64,000 nucleotides of DNA, from contig CAVUZE010000007.1 of NCBI GenBank assembly GCA_963745845.1, positions 130,672 to 194,671 of the forward strand, given 5' to 3'. The translations under genes and the position numbers were made by a program. This stretch comes from an uncultured Acidobacteriaceae bacterium. Lineage in GTDB: Bacteria; Acidobacteriota; Terriglobia; Terriglobales; Acidobacteriaceae. This document shows, in pieces, positions 10,068 through 47,439 of this stretch (the stretch's first letter is position 1; every line of letters starts with the position of its first letter). Under the pieces are notes generated by a model. The model searched no databases, was not told the DNA's origin, and was given only the letters and a program-made list of their open reading frames with translations.

Positions 10068-10103
10068 GGGGTTCCCGGCGACAGGTCTTCGTCACTGGGG
10101 TGG
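10068..10103 (+). repeat. Type-A REP-like hairpin
   Basis: GGGGTTCCC-GGCGAC-AGGTCTTC-GTCACT-GGGG-TGG, directly after the fabF stop. Confidence 0.85.
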
Positions 10104-10104
10104 G

Positions 10105-11352
10105 TTACTCGGTCCACCGCCGCATGATCAGCGTGGCGTTAATGCCGCCGAACCCAAATGAATTCGACAGTGCGACGTCGAAGCTGTGCGCAACGGCTTT
10201 ATTCGGCACGTAGTCCAGCCGGCATTCCGGATCGACGTTCTCAAGATTCGTCGTCGGCGGCAGCATCTGATTCTGCAGTGCCAGCACCGTGATGCCTGCT
10301 TCGAGGCCACCGGCGCCGCCCAGCAAATGGCCGGTCATCGACTTGGTGCCGCTCACCTTGAGCTTGCCGTTCAGCGCGTGCTCGCCGAACACCAGCTCAA
10401 TTGCGCGGGACTCGTTCCCATCGCCGGCCGGGGTCGATGTCGCATGGGCATTTACATAGCCCACTTCTTCCGTCCGAATGCCCGCGTCCTTCAGAGCTGC
10501 CCTCATGCTGCGCTGCGCGCCTGCGCCATCGGGAGCGATGCCCGTCATGTGATGCGCATCGGCGCTCATCCCATAGCCGATGACCTCGGCCAGAATCTTC
10601 GCGCCGCGTGCTCTGGCAAATTCCAGCTCCTCAAGAATCAGCACTCCGGCGCCTTCGCCAATCACGAATCCGTCGCGGTCTCTGTCGAACGGCCGGCTGG
10701 CCCGGGTCGGTTCGTCGTTGCGCGTCGAGAGCGCACGCATCGCCGCAAAACCGCCTACCGATAATGCTGTCACCGATGCTTCAGTGCCGCCGGCAATCAT
10801 GACATCGGCGTCGCCGTGCATAATCATGCGCACCGAGTCGCCGATGGAATTGGCGGATGTGGCGCACGCCGTCGCCGTAGCGGAAATCGGTCCCTTGGCG
10901 CCGTAGCGGATACTCAGTTGTCCCGCCGCCATGTTCACGATGACAGCGGGGATGAAGAAGGGCGAGATTTTGCGTGGGCCACCGGCGAGCAGGTTGGAGT
11001 GTTCGCGCTCAATGATTTCGAATCCGCCAATGCCCGAGCCGATAAAAACGCCGGTTCGATCGCCGATCTCTGGTGTGATCTGAAGACCCGACTGGGTGAT
11101 GGCTTCGTGGGTGGCAGCAAAAGCAAAGTGGATGAAGCGCCCCATCTTGCGCGCTTCTTTTTTGTCTACAAAGTTCAGCGGATCGAAATTCTTCACTTCG
11201 GCGGCAAAGGTGACCGGAAAGCCCGTCGTGTCGAAGCCCTGAATGGGGGCCATGCCGCTGGCCCCTGCCAGTAACTGTCGCCACACCTCCGGGGCGGTAT
11301 TGCCTACACCGCATACCAGCCCGAGGCCGGTGATGACAACTCGACGATTCAC
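10105..11352 (-). CDS. fabF: 3-oxoacyl-ACP synthase II
   Basis: RRVVITGLG, catalytic TACATS, AHATST and KSMTGHLLG, SNSFGFGG. Confidence 0.97.
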   Translation of the reverse strand: MNRRVVITGLGLVCGVGNTAPEVWRQLLAGASGMAPIQGFDTTGFPVTFAAEVKNFDPLNFVDKKEARKMGRFIHFAFAATHEAITQSGLQITPEIGDRTGVFIGSGIGGFEIIEREHSNLLAGGPRKISPFFIPAVIVNMAAGQLSIRYGAKGPISATATACATSANSIGDSVRMIMHGDADVMIAGGTEASVTALSVGGFAAMRALSTRNDEPTRASRPFDRDRDGFVIGEGAGVLILEELEFARARGAKILAEVIGYGMSADAHHMTGIAPDGAGAQRSMRAALKDAGIRTEEVGYVNAHATSTPAGDGNESRAIELVFGEHALNGKLKVSGTKSMTGHLLGGAGGLEAGITVLALQNQMLPPTTNLENVDPECRLDYVPNKAVAHSFDVALSNSFGFGGINATLIMRRWTE

Positions 11353-11355
11353 CGG

Positions 11356-11604
11356 TTACTTGCCTTTCGGAGTCTTTTCGTTCTTCTCGATGTACTCGAT
11401 GGCATCCTTGACAGTCTTGATCTTCTCGGCGTCCTCGTCGGGAATCTCGAGGTCGAAAGCCTCTTCGAACTGCATCACGAGCTCGACCACGTCGAGCGAA
11501 TCCGCGCCCAGGTCTTCCTGAAAGCTTGCCCCTGGGGTGACCTCCGCCTCGTCCACCTGCAGCTGCTCGACGATGATCTGCTTTACCTTTTCTTCAACAG
11601 CCAT
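11356..11604 (-). CDS. acpP: Acyl carrier protein
   Basis: [14 protein letters not shown] phosphopantetheine site; GAGGAG SD; adjacent to fabF. Confidence 0.98.
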
Positions 11605-12191
11605 GCCTGATTCTCCTCGTATTTTTCAGAACTTCGGATGCACTTCGGGCTTCGCCTTGCTTAGTCTCCGCTCCGCCAGCCTACAATACCGGCTCCGGCA
11701 CACGAACACAACCACAGCGCACAAAAAGATGCGCATGGCCCCGAATCTCCAAGTCTACCGGGCGGGTCAAGGCATGTAAAGGCGCGGTGGGACAGGGAAT
11801 AGGGAGTGCCGACGGGCCGGCCAAGCCGGTCACGCTTGGAGCTCAGATTCAACAGCATAAAACAGCACTGCCCCTTAGCCCAAATGTGAGCCGGAGTCAC
11901 CGATAGAGCTAAACTGCGGCCTGATTTCGGATAAATGACCGGGTTGAGCAATTGGACTCAGACGCTTCGCAACATAAATGAGAATCTGGAAAACAGGATT
12001 AGGTGAAACTTCGGAACTGACCATCGCCGTTGTGCAACCCATGCGTTCTTGCAAAGGCACAAAGACCACCGTCCTGCTGCCCTCCCCAGGGCCCCTCCAC
12101 TCGACTACTTAGCTCACCCCTGAGCAAAAGCAGATCCAAGCCGAAAGTTTACGGGCGCTTACAACAATGCCCCCGTGTGTCTTGGAGACAT

Positions 12192-12890
12192 ATGGCATCC
12201 GCAACCGTTTCAAATTCGTCGCTCGATTCAACTCTCAGTTCTGCTGTGGAGTGTAAACACCCGGCAGCTTCGGCTAAATTCTCTCCCGACGATCCTCTGA
12301 CCCGAGCTCGAGCCGGCGATCCCGACGGGTTCTCAGAACTCTACCGGCAGCATAGGAAGCGCGTTTTTTCAATTTGCATGCGCATGGTACACGATTTCCA
12401 GATGGCCGAAGACCTCACGCAGGAGACCTTTCTTCAGTTGCACCGGAAGCTTGCAACTTTTCGCGGGGACTCCGCCTTCACCACATGGCTTCACCGGATG
12501 ACAGTCAATATCGTGCTGATGCGCCTGCGCAAGCGCGTGCTCCCCGTGGTTTCGCTCGAACGCCTGGTAAAAAGCAGCGATGAGGAACGCGCCGTGCAAG
12601 GCTTTGGCATTTGCGATCCAAGACTGGACGCCGTTGTTGACCGCTTGACCATCGATCGTGCCCTGGCTGCGTTGGCGCCCGGCTATCGAAATGTCTTCCT
12701 CCTCCACGATGTCCATGGTCTTCAGCATAGCGAGATTGCCTCGATCGAAGGTTGCTCTGTGGGTAACTCTAAGTCCCAGTTGCACAAGGCGCGGCGTGCA
12801 TTGCGGGGCGCCCTCACAGCACGAGCGAGCCCGGGAGCTGGCGGATTAGCCGAAGCGACGCTTGTCACGGATGATGCCGACCTAGAATAG
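12192..12890 (+). CDS. ECF sigma-70 factor
   Basis: Region 2 AEDLTQETFLQLHRKLATFRGDSAFTTWLHR and region 4 LAPGYR..FLLHDVHG..HSEIA...SKSQLHKAR; start moved to ATG 12192 with GGAG SD. Confidence 0.92.
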   Translation: MASATVSNSSLDSTLSSAVECKHPAASAKFSPDDPLTRARAGDPDGFSELYRQHRKRVFSICMRMVHDFQMAEDLTQETFLQLHRKLATFRGDSAFTTWLHRMTVNIVLMRLRKRVLPVVSLERLVKSSDEERAVQGFGICDPRLDAVVDRLTIDRALAALAPGYRNVFLLHDVHGLQHSEIASIEGCSVGNSKSQLHKARRALRGALTARASPGAGGLAEATLVTDDADLE

Positions 12891-12938
12891 TGGCGATTTT
12901 TGGTGTTCTCGGATCTGGCGGCTGGGGAGAGTTTGGGT

Positions 12939-13133
12939 ATGGCGAAAACACGGGAGTTGATCGAGCAATTCGAACAAGGCAATCAATTCGGAACATGTGG
13001 CGCATGCAGCTGGGAATATCAGTGTCCGCCGCTGCTTCCTAACGATGAAGAGTCCCAGGCCGCTCTGGATCAAGCCTTCGATCGGCATGTCTGCGCGGAA
13101 CATCCTCGCGTAAAGAAGAAATCAAGCCGTTAA
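12939..13133 (+). CDS. Small Cys/His-rich protein, putative zinc-binding
   Basis: CGAC-x5-C ... HVCAEH; GGGGAGAG upstream of ATG 12939. Confidence 0.55.
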   Translation: MAKTRELIEQFEQGNQFGTCGACSWEYQCPPLLPNDEESQAALDQAFDRHVCAEHPRVKKKSSR

Positions 13134-13281
13134 AGAGGCCGTCAGCATTTTTCGGCTAACAGACATCTCTGAGTGTGGGTGCCTTCTTGGAGAGGCATCA
13201 ACACCGGAAAGGGCGCGGCGAGTTTCTGCTCCGAATTGCACATCAAAAAGGCGTACATTAGGCGAAGAGGTTTCATCCCCC

Positions 13282-14757
13282 ATGATGCAAGCCGTCCTCG
13301 TGCCAATTGCAATTCTTATATTTGGCTTTGTTCTAGGCGATTGGATTCGCTCCCGCTCCGCTCGATCCGAGAAGACTCTGCTGGAACAGCGCAACCGCGA
13401 GGCAGCCGACGCCCTCGCGGCTCTGCGCGGCGAGTTTGCCATAGCGCAGGGCGAGACGATGAGACGTGCAGGGTTTGAATCGCTGGCCGCCGAGCGGGAA
13501 AAGATGATTGCCGCACTGATTGCGGAGCGTGACGAGGCTCGTGGGGAGCAGCAGAAGAGCCACACGGTCGCGCGCGACCAGGCCGCCCGCATCAGTGAGC
13601 TTGAGGCGCACCTGAACAACGAACGCCAGAATATGGCGGAAAAGATTGCGCTCCTCGAATCCGCCAAACAGTCGCTGGCGAACCAGTTTGAAGTGCTCGC
13701 TGCCAACATTCTCGATCAAAAGTCCAGGACTTTCTCCGAAGGCAGCCAGAAAGAGCTGGGAACGCTGCTCACGCCCTTGCGCGAGCAGATCAGGGAGTTC
13801 CGCGAAAAAGTCGAAAAAGCACAGGCAGATTCAAACACCGGCGTCACGAAGCTCGAAACCCTGATCGGCTCGCTCAACGGCCTCAATCAACAACTGTCGG
13901 AAGACGCGCGCAACCTCACCACCGCTTTACGCGGCTCCGCGAAGACACAAGGCGATTGGGGAGAATTCATTTTGCGCGACCTGCTCGACAAGGCTGGTCT
14001 GCGCGAAGGCGAGCAATATTCGTTTCAGCAGTCTTTCGCTTCGAATGAAAACGACAGCAGCGAACGCGTGCGGTCCGTGCGCACCGATGTCGTCGTCATC
14101 CTTCCGGGCGGCCGCAATCTTGTCATCGATTCGAAGGTCTCTCTGACCGCCTACACCGATTGCGTGAGCGCGACGTGCGACGATGATCGAAAGGCCGCAC
14201 TGAAGCTGCATCTTGCCAGCATGCGCGGCCACATTGCGAGCCTCGCCAAGGCCGGATATCACCGGTTGCCGGAGCTCGAAGCGCCTGACTTTGTCGTGAT
14301 GTTCGTGCCCGTCGAGCCGGCTTTTCTGATGGCCCTGCAGGCCGACAGCGAGTTGTGGTCCGACGCGTACAAGCAGGGCATTCTGCTCGTCGGTCCCACC
14401 ACGCTTCTCTACGTCATCCGCATCGTCAATGTGCTCTGGCAGCAGGAGCGTCAGGCGCGCAACGTGCGCGAAGTGATGGAGCGCGGAAGCGAGCTCTACG
14501 AGAAATTTGTCGGATTCGTTACGGACATGGAGGCGATTGGCGACAATCTCCGCCGCACCGATCAGAACTATGCGAATGCGATGAAGAAGCTCGTGGATGG
14601 CCGCGGCAATCTCATCCGCCAGGTGGAGTTGCTCAAGAAGCTGGGCCTCCGCACCACAAAGTCGCTCCCCAAGGCTCTTCTCGATCGCGCCGACGTGGAT
14701 CAGGAAGAGCTGGCGCTGTCGGCCGAAGCGGAGAATGGTTCCACGAACCTGGTGTAG
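13282..14757 (+). CDS. rmuC: DNA recombination protein RmuC
   Basis: N-terminal TM plus coiled coil; KTQGDWGEFIL, RTDVVVILP..VIDSK, DFVVMFVP, GPTTL motifs. Confidence 0.95.
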   Translation: MMQAVLVPIAILIFGFVLGDWIRSRSARSEKTLLEQRNREAADALAALRGEFAIAQGETMRRAGFESLAAEREKMIAALIAERDEARGEQQKSHTVARDQAARISELEAHLNNERQNMAEKIALLESAKQSLANQFEVLAANILDQKSRTFSEGSQKELGTLLTPLREQIREFREKVEKAQADSNTGVTKLETLIGSLNGLNQQLSEDARNLTTALRGSAKTQGDWGEFILRDLLDKAGLREGEQYSFQQSFASNENDSSERVRSVRTDVVVILPGGRNLVIDSKVSLTAYTDCVSATCDDDRKAALKLHLASMRGHIASLAKAGYHRLPELEAPDFVVMFVPVEPAFLMALQADSELWSDAYKQGILLVGPTTLLYVIRIVNVLWQQERQARNVREVMERGSELYEKFVGFVTDMEAIGDNLRRTDQNYANAMKKLVDGRGNLIRQVELLKKLGLRTTKSLPKALLDRADVDQEELALSAEAENGSTNLV

Positions 14758-14799
14758 TAGCGCGTTCGCCCGCGCCCGCTCGATCGGCGTTCTGCTTAA

Positions 14800-24669: not shown

Positions 24670-24729
24670 GGTTCTCCTCCACTTGGGGTTCGCAGCTTCC
24701 GGTTCCGGGGCCATCCGGAACGGTAAAGG

Positions 24730-24871
24730 GGTTCCACAATTACTTTTCCCCGAAGCACCGCCGCCAAGTGGCTTTTTCCTTCCGGGGTCCCCGGCGACAG
24801 GTCTTCGTCGCTGGGGTGGAAGAAAATGCCAACTTGCACGACAGTGGAAAGGGCATGTGAATTGTGGAACC
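24730..24871 (-). promoter_or_regulatory. ~140-nt rod-like hairpin in the infC 5' leader
   Basis: Perfect 12-bp inverted repeat GGTTCCACAATT (24730-41) / AATTGTGGAACC (24860-71) enclosing further pairings and a type-A repeat at the tip. Confidence 0.6.
24784..24819 (+). repeat. Type-A REP-like hairpin
   Basis: GGGGTCCCC-GGCGAC-AGGTCTTC-GTCGCT-GGGG-TGG. Confidence 0.9.
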
Positions 24872-24898
24872 GCTCTAAAAAGCCCACGAACGCACCCT

Positions 24899-24909
24899 GA
24901 GTATAGCAT
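24899..24909 (-). promoter_or_regulatory. Extended -10 promoter for infC
   Basis: TG-C-TATACT on the minus strand ~30 nt upstream of the rod hairpin. Confidence 0.55.
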
Positions 24910-24956: not shown

Positions 24957-26582
24957 TCAATCCGCGGCAAACGACTCCGAAATTGCTGAAAGCTCCTTCG
25001 CTTCAACACTCGACAAGTTACCCTGTGCATCGATTCCGGTAACGCGCACTCGGACGCTTTGATTGGCGGGGAGGGATCCATCCACCTCGACCGGCAGAAA
25101 ATTCTCGGTCAACGCTGAAGTCCGGCCCAACTGGGCCAGCGCCTCCGGGGTGTGCAGAGTGATCGCGTCGAGTTCCTGGCCCACAAATGCTTGCCGGTGC
25201 GCCAGGCTCTTTTCCGCAGCCAAGGCGCGCATTGCAGCCATGCGCTCTACGACGACCTCGACAGCAACAGGGTCCGCTGCATGCAATGCCCAGGCGCGCG
25301 TTCCGGGCCGCGGCGAAAATGGGAACAGGTGCAGATAGCCGAAAGGCAGCGCGCGCACAAATTCGAGTGTCTCCTCGAACTCGGCATCCGTTTCGCCGGG
25401 AAAGCCCACCATGACATCGGCGCCGAGGGTTAACTCAGGTCCCGCGGCTCGCACCAACGCCGCAACTTTTTCGGCATAGTGCCACGGCCGGTAGCGCCGG
25501 TGCATGCGTCGCAGCACTGCGTCCGACCCGGATTGCAAAGGCAGATGCGCATGACGAGCCAGACGAGCACCCCAGCTCCCCGGACCTGTCGTTGGGGCTC
25601 CTGGCTTACCCTGCCGATGAATGGGATTCGCCGACCGCGCAGGTCCGCCGAACTCCGCCATCAGGCCGATCAACTCGGCATCCCAATCCATCGGCTCAAT
25701 CGAGCTCAATCGCAGCCGCGGCAATTCTGTTTGCGCAAAGATTTGCCGCACCAGGCTGGCTAGCGATGCAGGCGTCGCGGCCGAACTCCGTGCCCCATCC
25801 TTTCGGCTCACCGGGGTCCCCGCGGACAGGTCCTCGTCCGTGGGGTGGTCGCGCGAAAGGGTGGGAGACCACGCATCTCGAATTTCATTTGTCTCGCCTG
25901 CAACTGCAAGGTCCCGTCCCCACCGGCCTAAATTAATGCCGGAGAGGACCAGCTCGATTCCGCCTGCCGCAACAAATCCCTCTACCTGCCGCATCACGGC
26001 CGCGCCGGGCAGACTTCTAGACGAGCCTCTCGTTTGCGGGATGACGCAGAACGAGCACCGGTTTCCGCAGCCTTCCTGGATCTTCAAATTCGGCCGGGTC
26101 TGCGCGCCGGGAACCACCTGTGCTTCGGCTAAAAACGAATGGGCGAAAGAATCATCGGCAAGAATGAGAGGCGAACCGCTGCCCGCGATCAACGATGCCA
26201 TGCTCACTAGTCCTGCATTCGACGCAATCGCATCTTGCCCAGTCACTAGCCCGAGAGCAATCTTCGGCACGGATGCTTTGTGGCTGTTGCCCACAACCGC
26301 CGCGACTCCAGCCAATGCCGCCAGTTCCTCAGGCGCCCGCTGCGCATAGCAGCCCGTCGCCACAATCCGCGCCTCGGGATTGAGCCGGTGGGCTCGGCGA
26401 ATAAACGCGCGCGCTTCACGATCGGCTTCGGCGGTCACACTGCATGTGTTCACGACGATCACATCGGCTTGCTGGGCCTGCCGTTCCGAACATCCGGACG
26501 CGTTCAATTGCGCGGCAATTGCCTCGCCATCGGCCCGGGCCGCGCGGCAGCCGAAGTTCTCAATGTGAAACGAAGATCCCAC
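24957..26582 (-). CDS. mtaB: tRNA t6A37 methylthiotransferase MtaB (radical SAM) with two repeat-derived in-frame insertions
   Basis: ENFGC, VNTCSVT, TGCYAQ, KIQEGCGNRCSFCVIP (CxxxCxxC), HLPLQSGSD, DVMVGFPGE, FPFSPRPGT; GTG start at 26582. Confidence 0.9.
   Translation of the reverse strand: MGSSFHIENFGCRAARADGEAIAAQLNASGCSERQAQQADVIVVNTCSVTAEADREARAFIRRAHRLNPEARIVATGCYAQRAPEELAALAGVAAVVGNSHKASVPKIALGLVTGQDAIASNAGLVSMASLIAGSGSPLILADDSFAHSFLAEAQVVPGAQTRPNLKIQEGCGNRCSFCVIPQTRGSSRSLPGAAVMRQVEGFVAAGGIELVLSGINLGRWGRDLAVAGETNEIRDAWSPTLSRDHPTDEDLSAGTPVSRKDGARSSAATPASLASLVRQIFAQTELPRLRLSSIEPMDWDAELIGLMAEFGGPARSANPIHRQGKPGAPTTGPGSWGARLARHAHLPLQSGSDAVLRRMHRRYRPWHYAEKVAALVRAAGPELTLGADVMVGFPGETDAEFEETLEFVRALPFGYLHLFPFSPRPGTRAWALHAADPVAVEVVVERMAAMRALAAEKSLAHRQAFVGQELDAITLHTPEALAQLGRTSALTENFLPVEVDGSLPANQSVRVRVTGIDAQGNLSSVEAKELSAISESFAAD
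25567..25601 (-). repeat. Degenerate type-A repeat inside mtaB
   Basis: Minus strand GGAGCCCC-AACGAC-AGGTCCGG-GGAGCT-GGGG-TGC; encodes GAPTTGPGSWGA. Confidence 0.65.
25790..25872. repeat. Composite type-B palindrome carrying a nested type-A hairpin (25813-25848), inside mtaB
   Basis: GTGCCCCATCCTTTCG ... GGGGTCCCC-GCGGAC-AGGTCCTC-GTCCGT-GGGGTGG ... CGAAAGGGTGGGAGACCAC; read as WSPTLSRDHPTDEDLSAGTPVSRKDGAR. Confidence 0.85.
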
Positions 26583-26699
26583 AAAACCAGTGTAGGACAA
26601 TGCGCAAACCGGGGTGGCGTTGACCCGAACTCTGGCCCACACATCGCGAGGGCGATATCACAATCCTCCTTCAATTCCTGTGCTAGACTCCCTCACGTT

Positions 26700-29710: not shown

Positions 29711-30079
29711 ATGCCTCGCGTAAAACGCAGTACCAAACGCAACGACCGCCGCAAAAAAATCCTTGATCGGGCGAGCGGTTACTTCCTCACTAAATCCAAG
29801 CTCTATCAGGCAGCGCAGGAAGCCGTGGAGCGCGGCCTCAAGTTTGCCTATACCGGCCGCCGCCAGAAGAAGCGCCAGTTCCGCTCCCTGTGGATCGTAC
29901 GCATCTCCGCAGCCGCCAAGCTGAATGGCACAAGCTATTCGCAATTCATCAGCGGATTGAAAAAGGCCCGCGTCGAGCTCGACCGCAAGATTCTTGCCGA
30001 CATCGCCGTCCATGACGCAGCAGGCTTTACCAAGCTGGCCGAGCAGGCCAAAGGCGCTCTGGCCAGCAAAGCAGCATAA
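29711..30079 (+). CDS. rplT: 50S ribosomal protein L20
   Basis: [35 protein letters not shown]. Confidence 0.98.
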
Positions 30080-30093
30080 AGACAACCCGGACT

Positions 30094-30128
30094 GGGGCCC
30101 CATTGACAGGTCTTCGCCGATGGGGTGG
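30094..30128 (+). repeat. Type-A REP-like hairpin
   Basis: GGGGCCCC-ATTGAC-AGGTCTTC-GCCGAT-GGGG-TGG, 14 nt after the rplT stop. Confidence 0.8.
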
Positions 30129-30727: not shown

Positions 30728-31834
30728 ATGACGAACGAAGAAACATCGGACATCTCAAGGTATTCTGAACAAAACCTCGCCCAGTTTTTTTCGAATCTGG
30801 AGGCTGCTGCGCGGTTTGAAGCTGCGAATGCTCGCTCGCTGGAGGAAATAGAAAATCTCAGGCTGGCGTGGTTCGGACGCAAGCAGGGCTTGCTAAAGGT
30901 GCAGTCCGACCAATGGCTCAGGAACGCCCCACCTGAGGCCAAGAAGCCCCTCGGGCAACGCTTCAACGCGCTCAAGGCGGTCTTGGAAGACCTGCTGAAC
31001 CAGATGACGGGATCCGGCCCGAACGATGCTGCTCTCGCCGCCGAGGCCATCGACATCACACTCCCCGGCACCCGTCGCCTCACGGGTGCAGAGCATCCCA
31101 TTACGCGCACGCTGAACGAAATCACCAGTGTTTTCGCGGCTCTGGGCTACTCTGTAGGCGTCGGCCCCGAGGTCGAAACCGACTTCTACAACTTCGAGAG
31201 CATGAATTTTCCGCCGGGTCATCCCGCGCGCGACACGCAGGACACGCTGGTCATCGCCAATCAGGAGCGGCGCCCGTTGCGTGACCGCCTGCTTCTGCGC
31301 ACGCATACTTCGCCGGTGCAGATGCGCACCATGGAGCAGCAGCCGCCGCCCGTCCGTATCGTGATTCCCGGCAAAGTACACAGGAATGAAGCCGACGATG
31401 CGACCCACTCTTCCACCTTCCATCAGGTCGAGGGCCTCTGCGTCGATACCAACATCACCTTCAGTGATCTCAAAGGCACGCTCGATCACGCGATGAAGGC
31501 TCTCTTCGGCTCCTCGGTCAAGACACGCTTCTTTCCGTCGTTTTTCCCGTTTACTGAGCCGAGTGCCGATGTGCAGATCAGCTGCATTTTCTGCGGAGGC
31601 AAAGGTTGCCGCAAATGCAAGCACTCCGGCTGGATTGAGCTGCTGGGCTGCGGCATGGTCGATCCCGCCGTTTTTGCTTTCGCCGCCGAGAAGCAGCCAG
31701 GCTACGACCCGAAAAAGGTCTCCGGCTTCGCCTTTGGCATGGGGGCGGAGCGGATCGCGATGATGAAGTATGGCGTAAGCGATATTGGGCAGTTTTACTC
31801 AGGCGATATGCGGTTCTTGGGGCAGTTTGCGTAG
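30728..31834 (+). CDS. pheS: Phenylalanyl-tRNA synthetase alpha subunit
   Basis: HPARDTQDT, LLRTHTSPVQ, FHQVEG, FFPFTEPS, CxxC..CxxC insert, FAFGMGAERI. Confidence 0.97.
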   Translation: MTNEETSDISRYSEQNLAQFFSNLEAAARFEAANARSLEEIENLRLAWFGRKQGLLKVQSDQWLRNAPPEAKKPLGQRFNALKAVLEDLLNQMTGSGPNDAALAAEAIDITLPGTRRLTGAEHPITRTLNEITSVFAALGYSVGVGPEVETDFYNFESMNFPPGHPARDTQDTLVIANQERRPLRDRLLLRTHTSPVQMRTMEQQPPPVRIVIPGKVHRNEADDATHSSTFHQVEGLCVDTNITFSDLKGTLDHAMKALFGSSVKTRFFPSFFPFTEPSADVQISCIFCGGKGCRKCKHSGWIELLGCGMVDPAVFAFAAEKQPGYDPKKVSGFAFGMGAERIAMMKYGVSDIGQFYSGDMRFLGQFA

Positions 31835-31839
31835 GCGGG

Positions 31840-32193
31840 ATGAGCAGAACTCGACACTATCGAGACTTGATCGCATGGCAGAAAGCCATGGATCTCGCAC
31901 GTGCAATCTATGCGCAAACCGAAGAATTCCCTAAGTCGGAGACATTTGGGCTGCGAATGCAATTGCGTCGATCGGCTGTCAACACGGCCAGCCACATCGC
32001 CGAAGGCCATGGTCGATTAACCGACGCAGAGAATCGCAAATCGCGCAGCGTAGCTCGTGGCTCTCTAAATGAACTGCAAACGGAGCTTGAACTCGCGGGA
32101 AGCCTCGGATTCATAAACGAAGAAGCAACGAACGCATTGGTCGACCTCGCGACCGAAGTGGCGAAGCTGATCAATGGATTGCTAGGCGCTTGA
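31840..32193 (+). CDS. Four-helix-bundle protein (23S rRNA-IVS protein/Avd-like)
   Basis: YRDLIAWQKAMDL...FPKSETFGL..QLRR.AV...S.IAEG.GR...ARGSL.ELQT. Confidence 0.85.
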   Translation: MSRTRHYRDLIAWQKAMDLARAIYAQTEEFPKSETFGLRMQLRRSAVNTASHIAEGHGRLTDAENRKSRSVARGSLNELQTELELAGSLGFINEEATNALVDLATEVAKLINGLLGA

Positions 32194-39456: not shown

Positions 39457-41607
<2,151 letters not shown>

Positions 41608-41706
41608 CTACCAACGCACTTTGTTTTGCCTCTCCTGAGTGAGCTTGCCGCGCCAGCAGCGTATGGCCCCGCCGCAGGTGGCCGCTATCATGGTCTCCAG
41701 CGAACT

Positions 41707-42834
41707 ATGGAGCCCATCACGCACCTTCTCACCGGCGCCTGCATCGGCCGCGCCGGACTGAATCGTAAAACTGCGTACGCCACGCTGGCTGCTACGTTGG
41801 CGGCGGAAGCCGCGGACCTCGACATTCTCTGGGGTTTTGCCGGGCCCGTGCAGGAACTGAAACACCATCGCGGTATTACCCACACGTTTCTGGGAGCGCC
41901 GTTCGTGGCTGCCGCTGCCACAGGAGCAGTTTGGCTCTTCCACCGTTGGTGGGAAAGCCGACAAAAACGGCACGATCTGGCGCGGGACCAAGAGCCCAAC
42001 GCTCCACCCACTGCGCTGGCCGTACAACCGGTGCGTTGGGGCTGGGTTTATTGCACAGCCTTCATCGCTGCCCTCAGCCACATCCTGCTTGACTGGACCA
42101 ACAACTACGGCGTGCGCCCATTTTTTCCGTTCAACCCGCGTTGGTATGAAGGTAGCTTTGTCTTCATTGCTGAGCCAGTGCTATGGCTTCTGCTCGGGAT
42201 GGCGATCATCATCCCCTGGCTGCTTGGTCTGACCGATAGCGAAATAGGGGTGCGACGAACGCAATTCCGTGGCCGGGGATGGGCCATCTTCGCTCTATGC
42301 GGGATGGTCGTTGTTTGGTGCTGGCGTTGGGCCGAGCATGCGCAGGCACGGGCCATGCTCGAAAACACACAGGTCACCTCTGCGCCCGTCACGCGCATGA
42401 CCATCGAGCCCTATCCGGTTAATCCATTCCGGTGGCACGCGATCCTTGAAACACAGAACTACTACCAGACTGCCGAAATCGACACCCACACGGGTTCGGT
42501 CGACAGCGAATCGCCGCGCGACGTGCTCTACAAGCCAACGAACACGCCTGCCGTCGAAGCCGCCAAACGCACTCTGCTCGGTCAGGTCTATCTGGATTGG
42601 GGGACGTGGGCCGTGATACGCGATATCGGCCAGTACCCGGAGCCCGGCGCTGATCCGCCTCAATTGCCCCCAAATCGAACCTGGACGACCGTTGAGTTTT
42701 CAGATCTTCGTTTTGCTTACGCTTTCCGCGGAACGGGTAGATCGTCCGGCCCGTCGCTGCTCAGCGGCTGGGTCTACATCGTTGACGGCCACGACGAAGC
42801 AGCCGAAGGCATGGGCAGTCGTGTCCAGAAGTGA
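41707..42834 (+). CDS. Membrane-bound metal-dependent hydrolase (YdjM-like)
   Basis: MEPITH, DLD, HHRGITH, SHILLD..N.YG. Confidence 0.85.
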   Translation: MEPITHLLTGACIGRAGLNRKTAYATLAATLAAEAADLDILWGFAGPVQELKHHRGITHTFLGAPFVAAAATGAVWLFHRWWESRQKRHDLARDQEPNAPPTALAVQPVRWGWVYCTAFIAALSHILLDWTNNYGVRPFFPFNPRWYEGSFVFIAEPVLWLLLGMAIIIPWLLGLTDSEIGVRRTQFRGRGWAIFALCGMVVVWCWRWAEHAQARAMLENTQVTSAPVTRMTIEPYPVNPFRWHAILETQNYYQTAEIDTHTGSVDSESPRDVLYKPTNTPAVEAAKRTLLGQVYLDWGTWAVIRDIGQYPEPGADPPQLPPNRTWTTVEFSDLRFAYAFRGTGRSSGPSLLSGWVYIVDGHDEAAEGMGSRVQK

Positions 42835-42991
42835 TGCCGAGCGGCTCTTCGCGAGCCCGACGCGCCCGTCCCTCGCGAAAATCAGTGGAGACTAATTACC
42901 TTTTCCAAACATCCCTCTCTCAGGTCATTGCGTCGGCGCGCGTTTTGCGTCATTGTCATAAGCAGGAATCCTGAGAGCAGCACCTTCTGGC

Positions 42992-44056
42992 ATGCGTGTA
43001 GGGCCGCGGCAACTCGTTTTCTTACTCGTCGGGGTCTTGTGCTCCGTCCCGTATCAAGGTGCGGCCGGCCAAACCGCCCCAGCCACTCCAGAACAAGAGA
43101 TAGCTCTGCTCTCCTCCGCAACGCCTCCTATCGTCGCATCTGCCACTACGCAGACCTCGCAAGTTGCCGAGGAGTCATCGGCCGTCGAGCTGTTACGCAG
43201 TTTCCAGGATTCCGACGTCAAGTTTGATCTTCGCGACCTTATGGAAATCCTGCGCGATCGCCGCCATGAGGGATGGGTGCTGGCCGCGTACCCCGACCCG
43301 AAGACCAGCCGGCCCTTGATTGGCGCGGGATTCACCCTCGATTTGCCCGCACGAGAGCATCCGCAAACCGATCCTTTGAATCCTCATCCATTCCTCGAGC
43401 CATCCTCGGCCGATCTCTGGCGCGCCGCAGGACTGGACCCCGACCGGCTGCAATCGATCCTTGACCAATACAACGACCGCTTCTCGATGTGGAAGAAGAA
43501 GAGATTCCGCCAGAAGATCAAAACGCTGGAGCCGCAGATTACCGACGACGAGGCCACGCTTCTTCTACGCATCGCGACCATCCAGGCCATCTATAACGCA
43601 CGTGCCTATTGCCGCAATTTCGACCAGATGAGCGCTTCACAACAGATGGCTTTAAGTCAGCTCGTCTATCAGATGGGCGTCAATCTCGCCCGGTTCGATG
43701 AGTTCCTGTCCCTCATCAACGACGGCACGCCGGCGCACGTGTCAGAAGCTTCTTTGGAAACTGCTCCCTCTGGCGATCTCGAATATTGGAGATCGGTACA
43801 GCACTCATTGATGCAAAGCCAATGGGCCAAACTCTATCGCACCCGCGCCATTGCCGTGATTGCGATGCTTGACCCCGCGTACGCAGACAATCCAGTCGCG
43901 GCTGAACGTCTCGTCGGCGCAACGCTTCGTCCAGCCGTAGCCCACCGGCGCAGAGGCCGGTCAGCCAGCCTGAATCAGGTTGCGTCGAACGCGGGGAATT
44001 CCAGGTCAACGGCGCATAAAAGGAAAGTTCGAGCGCGAGCAAAGCGCAGAGCCTGA
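42992..44056 (+). CDS. Secreted T4-lysozyme-like (GH24) muramidase with basic C-terminal tail
   Basis: HEG-x7-D...IGAG, ALSQLVYQMGV, SQW...RA match T4 lysozyme landmarks (EG..YKD..TIGIG; ALINMVFQMG; SRW...RA). Confidence 0.65.
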   Translation: MRVGPRQLVFLLVGVLCSVPYQGAAGQTAPATPEQEIALLSSATPPIVASATTQTSQVAEESSAVELLRSFQDSDVKFDLRDLMEILRDRRHEGWVLAAYPDPKTSRPLIGAGFTLDLPAREHPQTDPLNPHPFLEPSSADLWRAAGLDPDRLQSILDQYNDRFSMWKKKRFRQKIKTLEPQITDDEATLLLRIATIQAIYNARAYCRNFDQMSASQQMALSQLVYQMGVNLARFDEFLSLINDGTPAHVSEASLETAPSGDLEYWRSVQHSLMQSQWAKLYRTRAIAVIAMLDPAYADNPVAAERLVGATLRPAVAHRRRGRSASLNQVASNAGNSRSTAHKRKVRARAKRRA

Positions 44057-44188
44057 CGTTCCCTCACGGGAGACTCTTCATCGCGCCGCGCCACCGAGTT
44101 GACCGGCACGCGCGCAAACCTCAGAATAGATGTATTGCATCTCCTACCCTCCTGAGCCTCAAGAGGGATTCCCGTACCGGAGGCGTCC

Positions 44189-44731
44189 ATGCCCGCTTAT
44201 CTGCTGATCGTTGTGGCCGTGTTGAGCCGCCTCCTTCTGGCTTTTTTCCCCCATCCCGCCTGGTTCAACTTCACGGCCGTCGGCGGAGCCTTGCTGTTCT
44301 TCGGCGCACGGCGCTCCTGGCGCGAAATGCTCGCCCCCCTGGCCGTACTGATGGCCACCGACTACTTCCTGACCACGCAGGTCTACTCCTACCCCTTCCA
44401 CTGGCAAGGATACGTGACCACGTGGGCATGGTACCTGATGGCCATGGCGCTTGGCTGGATCTTGCTCCATGCGCGCACCACATTTGTGCGCGTCGGGGCC
44501 GGCGTGATTCTGGGGCCGACTTCGTTCTTTATCGTTTCCGATTATGCCGTCTGGGCAGGCAGCAATATGTATCCGCATACGCTGGCCGGACTGCGCGATT
44601 GTTACATCGCCGCCCTTCCCTTCTATCGAAATGACCTGATTTCGACCGGCATCGTTGCCGGATTGGCCTTCGGTGTGCCGGTCCTCCTACGCCGGATGAA
44701 GGGCGCGCACCCCGCTGAAGCCCGGGCGTAA
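44189..44731 (+). CDS. DUF6580-like membrane protein (ECF S-component-like putative transporter)
   Basis: GGAGG SD; NFTAVGGALLFFGA, PF.RN...T motifs; 5-6 TM; no cobalamin riboswitch recognised upstream. Confidence 0.65.
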   Translation: MPAYLLIVVAVLSRLLLAFFPHPAWFNFTAVGGALLFFGARRSWREMLAPLAVLMATDYFLTTQVYSYPFHWQGYVTTWAWYLMAMALGWILLHARTTFVRVGAGVILGPTSFFIVSDYAVWAGSNMYPHTLAGLRDCYIAALPFYRNDLISTGIVAGLAFGVPVLLRRMKGAHPAEARA

Positions 44732-44798
44732 CGCCGCTTCCGCGCCGGGGCCACGGCTCATCCCGCCGTAAGATGCTTCTATCGGAGGAGCCGCAGCG

Positions 44799-45320
44799 AT
44801 GGCAGCCCCATCTCACACCGCAAATGTCCCTCTCGAGATATATCTCGCCAGCTCCTACGAGCCCGACGCAGAATATGTGGACGGAGTCATCGAGAGGAGA
44901 CCGATGGGGGAATACGATCATTCTTCCTGGCAGCACGCTGTCGAGCTATGGTTCGGGCAGCACGCCAGAGAATGGGGAATTCGTGTCCGCCCTGAGCTGC
45001 GTGTCGAGGTGGCTGCCGCACAATTCCGAGTCCCCGATGTGACCATTCTGGACCGCAACCTTCCCATCGAGCAGGTCATCACCCATCCGCCCGTCGCAGT
45101 CATTGAGATACTTTCCCCCGAGGACGCCCTCACTCGCATGATGACGAAGCTTGCAGAGTACGAACAGATGGGGATCCAGAGCATATTGGTTCTGGACCCG
45201 GTTGGACGGCATTTCCGCTTCATCAAAGGCGCGTTGGAGCCGCTGTCCCACGAGCCATTCGATCTGCCTGGCAGCCGATGCCGCTTCGACCTGGCCCAGG
45301 TCGAAAAGCTGCTGGACTAG
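44799..45320 (+). CDS. Uma2-family PD-(D/E)xK endonuclease-like protein
   Basis: EYVDG.IER, H, RPEL, RVPDV, IEILSP.D, KL.EY. Confidence 0.88.
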   Translation: MAAPSHTANVPLEIYLASSYEPDAEYVDGVIERRPMGEYDHSSWQHAVELWFGQHAREWGIRVRPELRVEVAAAQFRVPDVTILDRNLPIEQVITHPPVAVIEILSPEDALTRMMTKLAEYEQMGIQSILVLDPVGRHFRFIKGALEPLSHEPFDLPGSRCRFDLAQVEKLLD

Positions 45321-45390
45321 GATTGCCCTAGCTTCAGGCAGTACGAATCCAATCTGGGCGATCTGAGTGCCCGTCGGCCTCGTCTGCGCC

Positions 45391-46008
45391 TCAGCCCAGC
45401 GCCTCGCCGCTACGCCGCTTCCTCATCCACCACCACCCGAACCCGATCACCGCCAGAGCACCGACCACCAGGAGCGCAGTCAGCGCGTGATGTTGCACCA
45501 ACTCCACAGCCCCCGGCCCCAGTTTCAGTACCAGCAGCGAAAGCACCATCCAGCGTACGAATCGCCCCGCCGCCACTGCTGTCATGTACGGCACAATCCT
45601 CATCTCAAAGACGCCTGCCGCAAACACGAACAGCTTCCACGGTGTCGGCGGCGGCATCATCGAGGGGATCATCACGGCGAGGAATTCCTGACGTTCGAAG
45701 CGGTCGCGAAGTTGATCGTATTTGGCCCGGTTCACGCGCTTCAACAGGAACAACTCGCCGCCCGCTCGACCGATTCCGTAGGGTACCAAACCCCCAATGG
45801 CCGAACCCACGCTCGCCATCAGGCAATACAGCCAAAAGTGCCCCTTATCGTTCCAGACCCATCCGGCAATCAGGATGTCCATCGGAATCGGAATCGAAGA
45901 GGAATCGAGCAGAGCAGCCGCAGCCGCACCCCAGAATCCGAGCTTGAGCATCGCCGGCAGAATCACCAGCTTCCATTTGAGGCCCAGCTTTACGAAAAAC
46001 CGCTTCAA
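45391..46008 (-). CDS. DedA/YqaA (VTT-domain) membrane protein
   Basis: LDSS.IPIP.D, GS..GG...Y.IGR, PPP.P.K.F...AG, R..R; TTG start at 46008 assumed. Confidence 0.8.
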   Translation of the reverse strand: MKRFFVKLGLKWKLVILPAMLKLGFWGAAAAALLDSSSIPIPMDILIAGWVWNDKGHFWLYCLMASVGSAIGGLVPYGIGRAGGELFLLKRVNRAKYDQLRDRFERQEFLAVMIPSMMPPPTPWKLFVFAAGVFEMRIVPYMTAVAAGRFVRWMVLSLLVLKLGPGAVELVQHHALTALLVVGALAVIGFGWWWMRKRRSGEALG

Positions 46009-46248
46009 ATGGGTCTCTTTCCCCCTCGGAATCCGTCCATTCCAGAAGACCCATTGTACGGTTTGGCCTTGGGACGCGAACGATTGGCTTGCGCAAAAAC
46101 CCGAGACTTCAAATCGGCAGGCTCCAGCCATCTCATAGAGGTGACTCTTGGTGAACTCGCTTCACCGCAGATTCGAAGAGGATGAGAAAATAGACAGGAA
46201 GGACTCTAAACGAAACCGTCGGTCGGACCCCTAGCTCCTGTTGCGCGC

Positions 46249-47325
46249 ATGCCCATCACAGAGACACCAATCAAGGTGAACGAACCCGACGATCCAGCGG
46301 GCGCCGGACTCGATTCTCAGAGTCCCGGACAGCCTCCGCTTCCCGACGAAGAGCCAAACCCGGCTCCGCGCTCCACCTCACGTTGGGTCGACTACGACAC
46401 CCACGAATTGCTGGAAATGATCAGCGAGCTCGAAGACGAGCGCCGCTGGGCCCGCTTGCGCGAAGGCATTTGGCTCGCGCTTCTCATCCACATCATCCTG
46501 ATTTCCGCCATCACCTGGATCCCGAGGTATGTCTTTCGCGTGCCTCCGGTCATCGATCCCTTCGACGCCATCAAGCAACGCAAAGACCTGAGCTATCTCG
46601 ACTTGCCGCCCGATCTTGTGCGCAAGTACCAGCAACCGAAAGTGCAGATCAAGCCGGTTCCGGAAAAGCAGCCTCGAATCGACAAGAAGACCCTGGAGGC
46701 GATGAATAAACCCACGCCCCCGCCACTTCCGGCGCCCACCACGCCGCCCAAACTGGAAAACCCGGTGCAGCCGCAGCCCACGCCTCCCCCTCCGCCGAGC
46801 CCTAAACAGGAATCTCCCGTCGAGGCTCCCCACCCGACAGCGGTTCCTGCTCGTCCCAGCTTCGCCATGGGCTCGCAGAACCCGGCCGACCAGCTTCGGG
46901 AGGCAATGCGCGGCGCCGCGCAGAATCAGGGCGCGGACTCCGCCGCTCAACCGGTAGGAGGGCTGTCTCGGCACCCTGGCGCAGGGGGCGGCGTGCAGAT
47001 TCTTTCCGACACCCAGGGCGTCGATTTCAATTCCTGGCTGCATCGCTGGTACTACGAGACCGAGCACACATGGGACCCGCTCATCCCCGATGAAGTCAAC
47101 CCGCCCATCTTGAAGTCAGGAGCTGTCCAGATCCGCTTCAAGGTTCTTCCCAACGGGCAGGTCACGGACATGGTGCTCGAAGGCCGTTCCGGCGACACAG
47201 GGCTCGATCGCGCTGCCTGGGGCGCGATTACGGGCTCGAACTACCCACCTCTGCCGCGCGAGTTCCATGGGCCCTATCTGGAGTTACGGGCGCTGTTCTT
47301 GTATAACGAGAAGCCACCCCGGTAA
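46249..47325 (+). CDS. TonB-family protein (TM, Pro-rich linker, TonB_C)
   Basis: Single TM, Pro-rich region, ILSDTQGVDF..W, IRFKV..NG..TD...SG...LDRAA..AI...YPPLP. Confidence 0.82.
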   Translation: MPITETPIKVNEPDDPAGAGLDSQSPGQPPLPDEEPNPAPRSTSRWVDYDTHELLEMISELEDERRWARLREGIWLALLIHIILISAITWIPRYVFRVPPVIDPFDAIKQRKDLSYLDLPPDLVRKYQQPKVQIKPVPEKQPRIDKKTLEAMNKPTPPPLPAPTTPPKLENPVQPQPTPPPPPSPKQESPVEAPHPTAVPARPSFAMGSQNPADQLREAMRGAAQNQGADSAAQPVGGLSRHPGAGGGVQILSDTQGVDFNSWLHRWYYETEHTWDPLIPDEVNPPILKSGAVQIRFKVLPNGQVTDMVLEGRSGDTGLDRAAWGAITGSNYPPLPREFHGPYLELRALFLYNEKPPR

Positions 47326-47364
47326 GAGAGCGCGGTCTCGCACAGCCTCAGTCAGCAAGAAAAT

Positions 47365-47439
47365 GGGTGCCCAGGTCCGGGGTTCCCACGAGCACGTCTT
47401 CGTTCGTGGGGTGGAGATCTCGATTTTTGAGACCTGGGA
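47365..47439. repeat. Composite type-B palindrome carrying a nested type-A hairpin (47379-47414)
   Basis: GGGTGCCCAGGTC-C-[GGGGTTCCC-ACGAGC-ACGTCTTC-GTTCGT-GGGGTGG]-AGATCTCGATTTTTGAGACCTGGGA, between convergent genes. Confidence 0.88.

What the first reader, a model, noticed from the sequence alone, without database searches (positions are those of the whole stretch)
10068..47414. Type-A REP-like hairpin family with covarying stems and a fixed 8-nt loop
Six copies of GGGG(T)YCCC-N6-AGGTCTTC-N6'-GGGGTGG occur at 10068, 24784, 25567 (minus, degenerate), 25813, 30094 and 47379. The 6-bp stem differs between copies yet mostly stays paired (GGCGAC/GTCGCT, GCGGAC/GTCCGT, ACGAGC/GTTCGT), while the loop and G-rich ends are conserved. 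That pattern suggests selection on ssDNA/RNA structure plus sequence-specific recognition, as for REP elements bound by HUH (RAYT) transposases. No such transposase is in this window. I do not recognise this motif as a named family.
Basis: partly seen in the sequence, partly recalled or inferred. Interest (0 to 1): 0.7.

Follow-up and report, generated by a model that had tools for sequence, protein, structure and literature searches.

The report
Mobile hairpin repeat that also invades genes
The "type-A" motif is a real 38-base hairpin-forming selfish DNA repeat found across one genus of soil Acidobacteria; it lands in the loops of other repeats and, read in frame, inside essential genes, which is a known kind of behaviour (REP and RPE elements) seen here in an undescribed family whose mobilising enzyme is not identified.

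Summary
Five strong plus-strand copies and one decayed minus-strand copy are in the window. There are about 90-104 copies in the 6.4-Mb genome, against none expected by chance. The 10-bp stem covaries strongly.

The family occurs in nearly every genome of the genus (titles name Terracidiphilus/Acidobacteriaceae), at 0-99 copies. It is rare or absent elsewhere in the order, and Rfam has no match.

It behaves as mobile DNA, not as an RNA gene:
- It sits downstream of genes in either orientation.
- A third of copies lie inside another hairpin repeat (family B), always co-oriented.
- It is read in frame inside MtaB (in the window), GltX, GatB, MutS2, SecA, IspD and others.
- Orthologues in sister species have clean empty sites; filled sites carry +39 or +42 nt.
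- GltX and GatB were hit at the same or adjacent codons in different species.

The RAYT idea is only partly supported. The genome has four RAYT-like genes, but they are flanked by other palindromes. No type-A copy flanks any Y1 gene examined, and RAYT presence does not track copy number. TSD-like 4-nt flanking repeats are more frequent than chance.

Verdict: a new member of the REP/RPE kind, mobilising enzyme unknown.

The parts
10066..10103 (+). Type-A copy 1. It lies between convergent genes: a Yip1-domain gene ending at 9967 and a beta-ketoacyl synthase (minus strand) whose stop codon is at 10105-10107. It has one C.A mismatch in the stem.
24782..24819 (+). Type-A copy 2, a perfect match to the consensus. 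It sits at the apex of a long palindrome upstream of infC, on the strand opposite to infC.
24723..24877 (-). Host palindrome ('rod') that carries copy 2 at its tip. Folded as RNA from 24700-24900 it gives -95.5 kcal/mol, z = -6.2. Three other type-A copies in the genome share similar flanks.
25811..25848 (+). Type-A copy 3, in the loop of a family-B hairpin inside the MtaB-like gene. On the gene's strand it is translated as DHPTDEDLSAGTPV.
25790..25872 (+). Family-B hairpin (GTGCCCCA-stem-loop-stem-TGGGAGA) that hosts copy 3. The whole composite is in frame in the gene. Two sister genomes carry a B hairpin without type A at this site, and more than 15 have neither.
25567..25604 (-). Decayed type-A copy, matching 23 of 32 fixed positions. 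It is translated as PGAPTTGPGSWG.
25572..25646 (-). 75-nt in-frame insert in the MtaB-like gene that contains the decayed copy. It is absent from all 23 aligned orthologues.
24957..26642 (-). Host gene: a MiaB/MtaB-family radical-SAM methylthiotransferase of 561 aa with an intact reading frame. About 68 residues are extra relative to solved MiaB, between GINLGRW and HLPLQSGSD.
30091..30128 (+). Type-A copy 4 (one base short in the head). It starts 13 nt after the rplT stop codon (30077-30079) and is in the same orientation as rplT.
47377..47414 (+). Type-A copy 5, inserted in the 5' arm of a family-B hairpin with flanks AGGT/AGAT. It lies between convergent TonB-like and ClC-channel genes.
47365..47441 (+). 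Family-B hairpin that hosts copy 5.
60317..60347 (+). Weak, partial type-A copy (nhmmer E=0.012).
53363..53398 (+). Empty family-B hairpin (GGGTGCCCCAGGTCCGGATTCTCGGACCTGGGATA), for comparison with the filled ones.

Best explanation
Type A is a family of 38-nt palindromic, non-coding, mobile or recently mobile DNA repeats of the REP/RPE kind, spread through one acidobacterial genus.

Anatomy: a 5' head CCGGGGT; a 10-bp stem made of a fixed CCCC/GGGG clamp, three covarying pairs and a fixed GAC/GTC; a fixed 8-nt loop AGGTCTTC; and a 3' tail TGG.

Shown:
- Copies are gained or lost at orthologous sites between species.
- New copies add 39 or 42 nt.
- Copies prefer the tips or arms of pre-existing palindromes, always in one orientation relative to family B.
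- Copies prefer regions downstream of genes.
- Copies are tolerated in frame in conserved proteins as 13-14-residue hydrophilic inserts.

Inferred:
- The element is copied by a trans-acting protein that recognises the folded top strand (head, loop and tail) as single-stranded DNA.
- Stem pairing is kept because only pairing copies are substrates.
- Only insertions whose length is a multiple of three, in loop-tolerant positions, survive in genes.

The enzyme is not identified. The resident RAYTs are candidates, but I found no positive evidence for them.
For: - Copy number and chance.
- Covariation of the stem.
- Strand asymmetry: G.T outnumbers A.C by 72 to 18 on the top strand (35 to 16 without pair 12-31), which suggests that strand is the one that folds.
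- Distribution: 23 of 24 and 22 of 23 sampled genomes of the genus carry it, at 0-99 copies. Seven other genera of the family carry 1-6 copies. None of 23 genomes of the other family carry it. Titles name Terracidiphilus/Acidobacteriaceae.
- GltX filled and empty sites: the own genome has +42 nt at LLRS|DG with flanks TCGG/TGGG. G012 has +42 nt six bases further on with a perfect GGGT/GGGT duplication. Nineteen other species are empty.
- GatB: +39 nt at the same codon in G000, G024 and G003, with different stems; 26 species are empty. G003 is sister to the empty G004 with 100/98 support, so at least two events are needed.
- MutS2: +42 nt in the own genome only.
- MtaB: three states at one site, namely empty, B alone, and B plus A.
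- Flanking 4-nt direct repeats: 9 exact and 33 with at most one mismatch, out of 90 copies. Shuffled flanks give 1.8 and 7.5.
- Tandem arrays with a 42-nt period.
- Nesting: 32 of 90 copies lie inside family B, all co-oriented, at 10 or more offsets. 14 of 86 copies lie within 10 nt of the centre of a perfect inverted repeat of 7 bp or more, against 1.4% of random intergenic positions.
- Gene context: depleted between divergent genes (4 of 68 against a 25% background), with no orientation bias relative to transcription (21 to 20).
- Host proteins are real, conserved enzymes.
Against: - No transposase or other gene is associated with the element in any locus examined.
- Patchy presence at a site could partly reflect precise loss rather than repeated gain.
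- Many copies, especially the A-in-B composites, may have spread as passengers of family B, so the counts are not independent events.
- The 4-nt duplication is absent at GatB (+39 nt) and MutS2 (4 nt of filler, no repeat). The junction rule is therefore not settled.
- Gene calls used for genome-wide statistics came from my own crude codon-usage caller.
Confidence: 0.82

Rival explanations
1. It is a classical REP/REPIN served by a RAYT (HUH Y1 transposase). One of the genome's RAYT-like enzymes would bind the head plus hairpin on single-stranded DNA and cut and paste, or copy, it.
For: - The genome has four RAYT-like genes.
- One of them (C8:1358546) is flanked by inverted family-B hairpins, as is a RAYT gene in G014.
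- The type-A head GGGGTCCCC resembles the family-B head GGGTGCCCC (sequence).
- Type A is always co-oriented with B.
- The top-strand G.T bias fits folding of one strand.
- Gene context is REP-like.
Against: - No type-A copy flanks any Y1 gene in the own genome, nor in 30 Y1 loci of seven type-A-rich genomes. The one nearby copy is inserted into a frameshifted RAYT gene.
- No Y1 gene lies within 8-kb loci around 120 copies in other genomes.
- The Y4-type RAYT is intact in type-A-poor G023, G079, G007 and G019, but only fragmentary in type-A-rich G020 and G005.
- The Y2-type RAYT is absent from type-A-rich G195, G053, G014 and G005, and present in type-A-poor G023 and G079.
- There is no GTAG or CGTC tag and there are no inverted doublets.
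- TSD-like flanks are not expected from IS200/IS605-type chemistry (established knowledge).
Confidence: 0.22
2. It is a minimal MITE-like element moved by a transposase that makes staggered cuts (DDE type). It would resemble the IS3-family elements IS1397 and ISKpn1, which insert into REP loops and duplicate 3-4 bp (from my own knowledge).
For: - 4-nt flanking direct repeats exceed chance and are confirmed against empty orthologous sites in GltX and in a RAYT pseudogene of G009 (TTCA/TTGA).
- Copies insert at the tips of palindromes.
- The tandem period of 42 equals 38 + 4.
Against: - At 38 nt the element is far below MITE size. Its only 'terminal inverted repeats' are the hairpin arms.
- No full-length element with separated type-A halves exists in the genome.
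- GatB and MutS2 junctions lack a duplication.
- Strict co-orientation with family B is not expected for a symmetric double-strand mechanism.
Confidence: 0.12
3. It is primarily a functional RNA or DNA site, such as an mRNA 3' stabiliser, a regulatory leader element or a nucleoid-protein or gyrase site. On this view it is kept by host selection rather than by mobility.
For: - Copies are enriched downstream of genes.
- One copy caps a very stable rod upstream of infC, and one follows rplT directly.
- The consensus is identical across species whose orthologous proteins are 76-89% identical.
Against: - Both orientations relative to transcription are equally common (21 to 20).
- No U-tract follows the hairpin.
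- Copies sit in both orientations inside coding regions of unrelated genes.
- Orthologous sites are mostly empty.
- Copy number ranges from 0 to 99 within the genus.
- No Rfam family matches.
Confidence: 0.07

Closest known systems
REP / REPIN elements with RAYT transposases (E. coli, Pseudomonas; PMC2817692, PMC3116915, PMC3479197; GTAG and CGTC classes of PMC3733652)
   Same: - Short imperfect palindromes of 20-40 nt, with tens to hundreds of copies and a lineage-specific consensus.
- Stems with G.T pairs on one strand.
- Located after genes and between convergent genes.
- Sometimes nested in other palindromes and sometimes intragenic; both are reported in PMC3733652.
- CGTC REPs likewise lack a dedicated transposase.
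   Different: - No GTAG or CGTC terminal tag.
- An 8-nt invariant loop, against 2-5 nt for most REPs.
- A G4/C4 clamp with an extra 5' G4 block.
- Direct tandems with a 42-nt period instead of inverted doublets.
- No copy flanks a RAYT.
- TSD-like 4-nt repeats flank a third of copies.
Rickettsia palindromic elements (RPE) and other intragenic REPs (summarised in PMC3733652; Ogata et al. 2000 from my own knowledge)
   Same: - Palindromic repeats inserted in frame in conserved, often essential genes and read through as extra peptide segments.
- Absent from orthologues.
- Also present between genes.
   Different: - The host is a free-living soil acidobacterium with a 6.4-Mb genome.
- The element is much shorter than RPE-1.
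- The same or adjacent codons in GltX and GatB are hit in different species.
- Sequence relatedness to RPEs was not tested.
BoxC / PIT / TMECO intrastrand-triplex repeats (PMC4666352)
   Same: GC-rich intergenic repeats with G and C blocks and no known enzyme. The type-A head adds a third G block next to a C/G clamp.
   Different: - TMECO is CCCTCNCCC-N3-6-GGGNGAGGG-N3-GGGNGAGGG, with three 9-nt blocks in the order C-G-G.
- Type A has 4-nt blocks in the order G-C-(hairpin)-G. Its third block runs parallel to the purine arm, not antiparallel.
- The only DUF559 domain in this genome is fused to a helicase and has no type-A copy nearby.

Membership tests
REP/REPIN-RAYT system | Short (20-40 nt) imperfect palindrome present in many dispersed copies | tested here: met
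   The unit is 38 nt. There are 90 ungapped copies and 104 nhmmer copies. The hairpin folds at -10.8 kcal/mol as DNA. Covariation is shown.
REP/REPIN-RAYT system | Mostly extragenic, downstream of genes, rare in promoter regions between divergent genes | tested here: met
   Of 104 copies, 69 are intergenic by my own gene calls. Among 68 with both flanking genes called, 23 are convergent, 41 tandem and 4 divergent, against a background of 21/54/25%. About a third overlap ORFs.
REP/REPIN-RAYT system | Conserved terminal GTAG (or CGTC) tetranucleotide next to the stem (PMC3733652) | tested here: not met
   The ends are CCGGGGT...TGG on the top strand and CCA...ACCCCGG on the bottom strand.
REP/REPIN-RAYT system | Copies of the same repeat flank a RAYT gene in inverted orientation (REPtron) | tested here: not met
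   Five Y1 genes in the own genome carry other palindromes. Thirty Y1 loci in seven sister genomes have none flanked by type A. No Y1 gene lies in 120 loci around type-A copies.
REP/REPIN-RAYT system | Inverted doublets (REPINs) as the replicating unit | tested here: not met
   In the listed copies, neighbouring copies are in direct orientation: tandem arrays of period 42 or 43 and same-strand neighbours up to a few kb apart. I saw no inverted pairs there.
RPE-like intragenic palindromic elements | Repeat lies inside conserved protein-coding genes, the frame stays open, and the insert is absent from orthologues | tested here: met
   Orthologue comparison: MtaB, GltX, GatB and MutS2. Open frame only (no orthologue comparison): SecA, IspD, PyrB, Fpg and others.
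RPE-like intragenic palindromic elements | Sequence homology to the Rickettsia or Wolbachia RPE families | not tested
   No RPE sequence was compared. The consensus differs from the CGTC-type description in PMC3733652 (8-9-bp stem starting with A/T, 4-5-nt loop, 3' CCA tail).
BoxC/PIT/TMECO triplex repeats | Three consecutive blocks of about 9 nt fitting CCCTCNCCC-N3-6-GGGNGAGGG-N3-GGGNGAGGG (PMC4666352) | tested here: not met
   Type-A blocks are 4 nt long, in the order G-C-G, with a 20-nt hairpin between the second and third blocks (paper read).
MITE | 70-300 bp with 15-30-bp terminal inverted repeats matching an IS, and a target-site duplication (definition as in PMC3733652) | tested here: not met
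   The element is 38 nt. No element with separated halves was found. Duplication-like flanks are present only in part of the copies.
Any Rfam RNA family | Match to a curated covariance model | tested here: not met
   There are 0 matches at gathering threshold in 64 kb. At E<=10 around two copies there are only two unrelated weak hits.

The most novel reading that the evidence does not exclude
Type A may not depend on a RAYT at all. It could be a minimal element of a new kind: one 38-nt hairpin copied by a factor conserved throughout the genus. It would integrate in a fixed orientation at the single-stranded tips of other hairpins, and at a few hot spots in genes, leaving a duplication of about 4 nt. 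The two RAYT clades tested are patchy, while copies close to the consensus occur in almost every species sampled. The evidence does not exclude a housekeeping or so far unrecognised enzyme as the driver.
Probability: 0.18. Interest if true: 0.75.

Novelty: new member of a known kind. Interest (0 to 1): 0.42.

Why it matters
This gives an abundant soil lineage (Terracidiphilus/Acidobacteriaceae) a well-defined REP/RPE-like family, with clean filled and empty sites inside essential genes.

- It is a natural record of which protein loops tolerate 13-14 extra residues. Examples are the GluRS catalytic domain, GatB, MtaB and IspD.
- It warns annotators that these 'extra' peptides and long 'ORFs' through repeats are selfish DNA.
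- Strict co-orientation with another repeat family, recurrent hits at the same codons and the lack of a linked transposase make it a usable system for asking how orphan REPs move.
- For RNA-motif hunters, it is an example where strong covariation reflects a DNA element and not an RNA gene.

Tried and rejected
- **Rfam:** no family matched at gathering or E-value thresholds.
- **RAYT as partner:** I checked the flanks of all five Y1 genes, 120 loci around copies in other genomes and 30 Y1 loci in seven sister genomes. I also checked co-occurrence of two RAYT clades with copy number. None gave a link.
- **Full-length IS with type-A ends:** orphan left halves are few and unpaired. My right-half pattern was too loose to be informative.
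- **Copies with identical flanks as a hint of a larger mobile unit:** these turned out to be the duplicated tuf gene and a 7.3-kb repeat at contig ends.
- **DUF559/BoxC lead from earlier notes:** the single DUF559 domain is fused to a helicase with no type-A copy nearby. The TMECO consensus is not met.
- **Open in all six frames as a special adaptation:** rejected, because 41% of random 38-mers of this base composition are also open in all six frames.
- **Minimum-free-energy test for enclosing host stems:** uninformative, because random GC-rich flanks pair about as often. I replaced it with an exact inverted-repeat test.
- **Replication-strand bias:** 23 to 11 on the largest contig, not significant.
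- **CRISPR array:** rejected, because the tandem units have no spacers.
- **Intrinsic terminator:** rejected, because no T-run follows the hairpin.

Full report
**1. Observation**

Five copies on the + strand start at 10066, 24782, 25811, 30091 and 47377. They have 1, 0, 1, 4 and 5 mismatches to the 32 fixed positions. A pattern search found 5 matches against 0.00 expected from shuffles.

The minus-strand copy at 25567-25604 matches 23 of 32 positions and has lost its 3' arm. A weak seventh copy is at 60317-60347. Rfam has nothing at gathering threshold over the window and nothing related at E<=10 around two copies.

**2. Genome-wide family**

The window is C7:130672-194671 of a 6.38-Mb, 58% GC assembly. 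The consensus, allowing up to 6 substitutions, gives 90 copies. Five composition-matched shuffled patterns give none. An nhmmer profile gives 104 copies at E<=1e-3.

Only the three pairs next to the CCCC/GGGG clamp vary. On 139 distinct copies from this and other genomes (alignment A1):
- The 10-bp stem plus a 2-bp outer CC/GG pairing is 94.3% paired, against 84.2% after shuffling (0 of 500 shuffles reach it).
- There are 175 double-change cells, against 65.6 expected.
- Controls with partners slid by 1-3 columns give 40-60% pairing.
- G.T pairs outnumber A.C pairs 72 to 18 on the top strand, or 35 to 16 without pair 12-31. This is a modest sign that the top strand is the one that folds. Copies share ancestry, so this is not a probability.

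**3. Taxonomic spread**

The pattern is in 23 of 24 same-genus genomes in one sample and 22 of 23 in another, at 0-99 copies. Seven other genera of the same family carry 1-6 copies. None of 23 genomes of the second family in the order carry it. Reversed-pattern controls are all zero.

Public records holding exact matches are almost all titled Terracidiphilus sp. or Acidobacteriaceae MAGs from peat, bog and fen. The consensus is the same in species whose orthologous proteins are only 76-89% identical. This points to an active or recently active copying process, or a conserved recognising factor. That last step is inference.

**4. It is DNA that moves, and it also sits inside genes**

A Pfam scan showed that copy 3 and the decayed copy lie inside an intact 561-aa MiaB/MtaB-family methylthiotransferase gene (24957-26642, minus strand). 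Against solved MiaB, about 68 residues are extra between GINLGRW and HLPLQSGSD.

Orthologues from 23 relatives show three states at the first site:
- empty in most;
- a family-B hairpin alone in G003 and G004;
- family B with type A in its loop in this genome.

At the second site, a 75-nt insert with the decayed copy is unique to this genome.

Genome-wide, 34 of 104 copies lie inside my crude gene calls. The hosts include SecA, GatB, GltX, IspD, PyrB, Pgl, MutS2, Fpg, NuoC, a CapA-like protein and a GH79-like protein. Two reading frames dominate in credible genes. One is G[VA]PxDRSSSxGW when the element is on the coding strand. The other is HPxDEDLSxG[TA]P when it is on the opposite strand. 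Being open in all six frames is not special for this composition, since 41% of random 38-mers are too.

**5. Filled and empty orthologous sites**

| Gene | Filled genomes | Size and position | Flanks | Empty genomes |
|---|---|---|---|---|
| GltX | own genome | +42 nt between LLRS and DG | TCGG/TGGG | 19 species |
| GltX | G012 | +42 nt, six bases downstream | perfect GGGT/GGGT | same 19 |
| GatB | G000, G024, G003 | +39 nt at the same codon, different stem variants | no repeat | 26 species |
| MutS2 | own genome only | +42 nt | 4 nt of filler, no repeat | all other aligned orthologues |

In a GatB+GltX tree, G003 is sister to the empty G004 with 100/98 support. At least two gains, or a gain and a precise loss, are therefore needed.

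Over all 90 copies, the 4 nt on either side are identical in 9 and differ by at most one base in 33. Shuffled flanks give 1.8 and 7.5, with maxima of 6 and 16. Tandem arrays have a 42-nt period, and one has 43. A duplication of about 4 nt is therefore likely at many insertions but is not universal.

**6. Where it lands**

- 32 of 90 copies lie inside family-B hairpins (GGGTGCCCCA-stem-loop-stem-TGGGAAAGCAC). They sit at 10 or more different offsets and are all co-oriented with B; none is inverted.
- Other hosts are a GTCATCCTGAGCG...CGAAGGATC palindrome and the long rod upstream of infC, whose tip is copy 2.
- 14 of 86 copies sit within 10 nt of the centre of a perfect inverted repeat of 7 bp or more. 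Only 1.4% of random intergenic positions do.
- Intergenic copies favour convergent and tandem gene pairs and avoid divergent ones. They show no orientation bias relative to transcription, 21 to 20. That argues against a strand-specific RNA role.

**7. The transposase question**

The genome has five Y1_Tnp matches: one IS200-like gene and four RAYT-like genes.
- The gene at C8:1358546 is flanked by inverted family-B hairpins, a classical REPtron arrangement.
- The gene at C8:1533891 is flanked by B-like heads.
- The other two are flanked by further palindromes.
- None is flanked by type A.

In 120 8-kb loci around type-A copies elsewhere there is no Y1 gene. In 30 Y1 loci of seven type-A-rich genomes, one type-A copy is inserted into a frameshifted RAYT gene (TTCA/TTGA flanks), and one sits in a family-B hairpin beside a B-flanked RAYT.

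Presence of the Y4-type and Y2-type RAYTs does not follow type-A abundance in 16 genomes. For example, G020 has 33-42 copies and only a Y4 fragment, while G023 has 0-1 copies and both RAYTs. The similarity of the heads (GGGGTCCCC against GGGTGCCCC) and the strict co-orientation keep a RAYT acting in trans possible, but nothing positive supports it.

A DUF559 lead from earlier notes was tested and failed here. The TMECO/BoxC consensus is not met. No long element with type-A halves exists. Copies with identical flanks are the duplicated tuf gene and a contig-end repeat.

**8. Comparison with known systems**

REPs nested in other palindromes and REPs inside genes, with Rickettsia RPEs as the extreme case, are described in PMC3733652. 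That paper also notes that CGTC REPs lack a dedicated transposase.

Type A shares the behaviour but not the defining tags. It has no GTAG or CGTC tag, an invariant 8-nt loop, direct tandems rather than inverted doublets, and no REPtron. I found no paper on such repeats in Acidobacteria or Terracidiphilus.

Earlier notes of this scan list many RPE-like cases in other phyla, so the phenomenon itself is not rare.

**9. Verdict**

- Best reading: a new family of the REP/RPE kind, mobile in trans by an unidentified enzyme, with a preference for hairpin tips and in-frame tolerance in essential genes.
- Limits: gene calls are my own rough ones; one genome per species prevents dating of insertions; counts include copies that may have spread as passengers of family B; transcript data could not be fetched.

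Noticed in passing
window 53363-53398 and 6566-6599; genome C8:1358396-1359350: Family-B hairpins (GGGTGCCCCA-variable stem-loop-stem-TGGGAAAGCAC) form a second, larger covarying repeat family. Inverted copies flank a RAYT-like gene at C8:1358546, a REPtron arrangement. The same arrangement occurs in sister genome G014.
   Followed up: partly
window 24723-24877 (minus strand): A rod-like palindrome of about 155 nt upstream of infC (folded from 24700-24900: -95.5 kcal/mol, z = -6.2) carries a type-A copy at its tip. Three other type-A copies in the genome have similar flanks (GTGGCTTTTTCCTT...AAGAAAATGCCA). It may be yet another composite repeat rather than an infC-specific leader.
   Followed up: partly
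window 25572-25646 (minus strand): The second MtaB insert (75 nt, unique to this genome) has a 5' part, GCGAATCCCATTCATCGGCAGGG, that resembles an arm of a family-B variant. It may be a decayed A-in-B composite.
   Followed up: no
genome C6:384374, C6:329462, C8:3117469, C8:2249932: A further palindromic family, GTCATCCTGAGCG...CGAAGGATC, also hosts type-A copies near its centre, co-oriented in all four cases seen.
   Followed up: no
window 10020-10065; genome C1:140143, C6:42285, C8:2031062: Runs of the heptamer TTCCCTG (and variants) lie next to several type-A copies. One case is inside a CRTAC1-like gene, where they are read as GN(R/Q)E-type peptides.
   Followed up: no
genome C6:341785-343183 and C7:75144-76542: Two tuf (EF-Tu) copies are 99.1% identical over 1.4 kb. 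Both carry a type-A copy directly after the stop codon, inside the duplicated block.
   Followed up: yes
locus L232 (G009:C16, about 31606-31971): A RAYT-like gene in a sister genome is frameshifted and carries a type-A insertion with TTCA/TTGA flanks in its conserved IHRNPV motif.
   Followed up: yes
genome C7:89301, C8:116326, C8:1533891: Three more RAYT-like genes each sit between their own inverted palindromes (for example GTTAGCCCCGCGCTTCAGCGTGGGG and GTAACAGGGCACGACTTCAGTCGTGCC). The genome therefore hosts several separate REP-RAYT pairs.
   Followed up: partly
genome C8:200073-200393: The only DUF559 domain of the genome is the C-terminal part of a 423-aa open frame with helicase-like sequence upstream. 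No hairpin repeats flank it.
   Followed up: yes
genome C2:585389 and C2:928900: A related repeat uses the type-A left half (GGGGTCCCC-NNN-GAC) followed by a different right part (…GGGG[CT][CT]CC…GCGAGCGAT). It may be a sister family or a hybrid.
   Followed up: no
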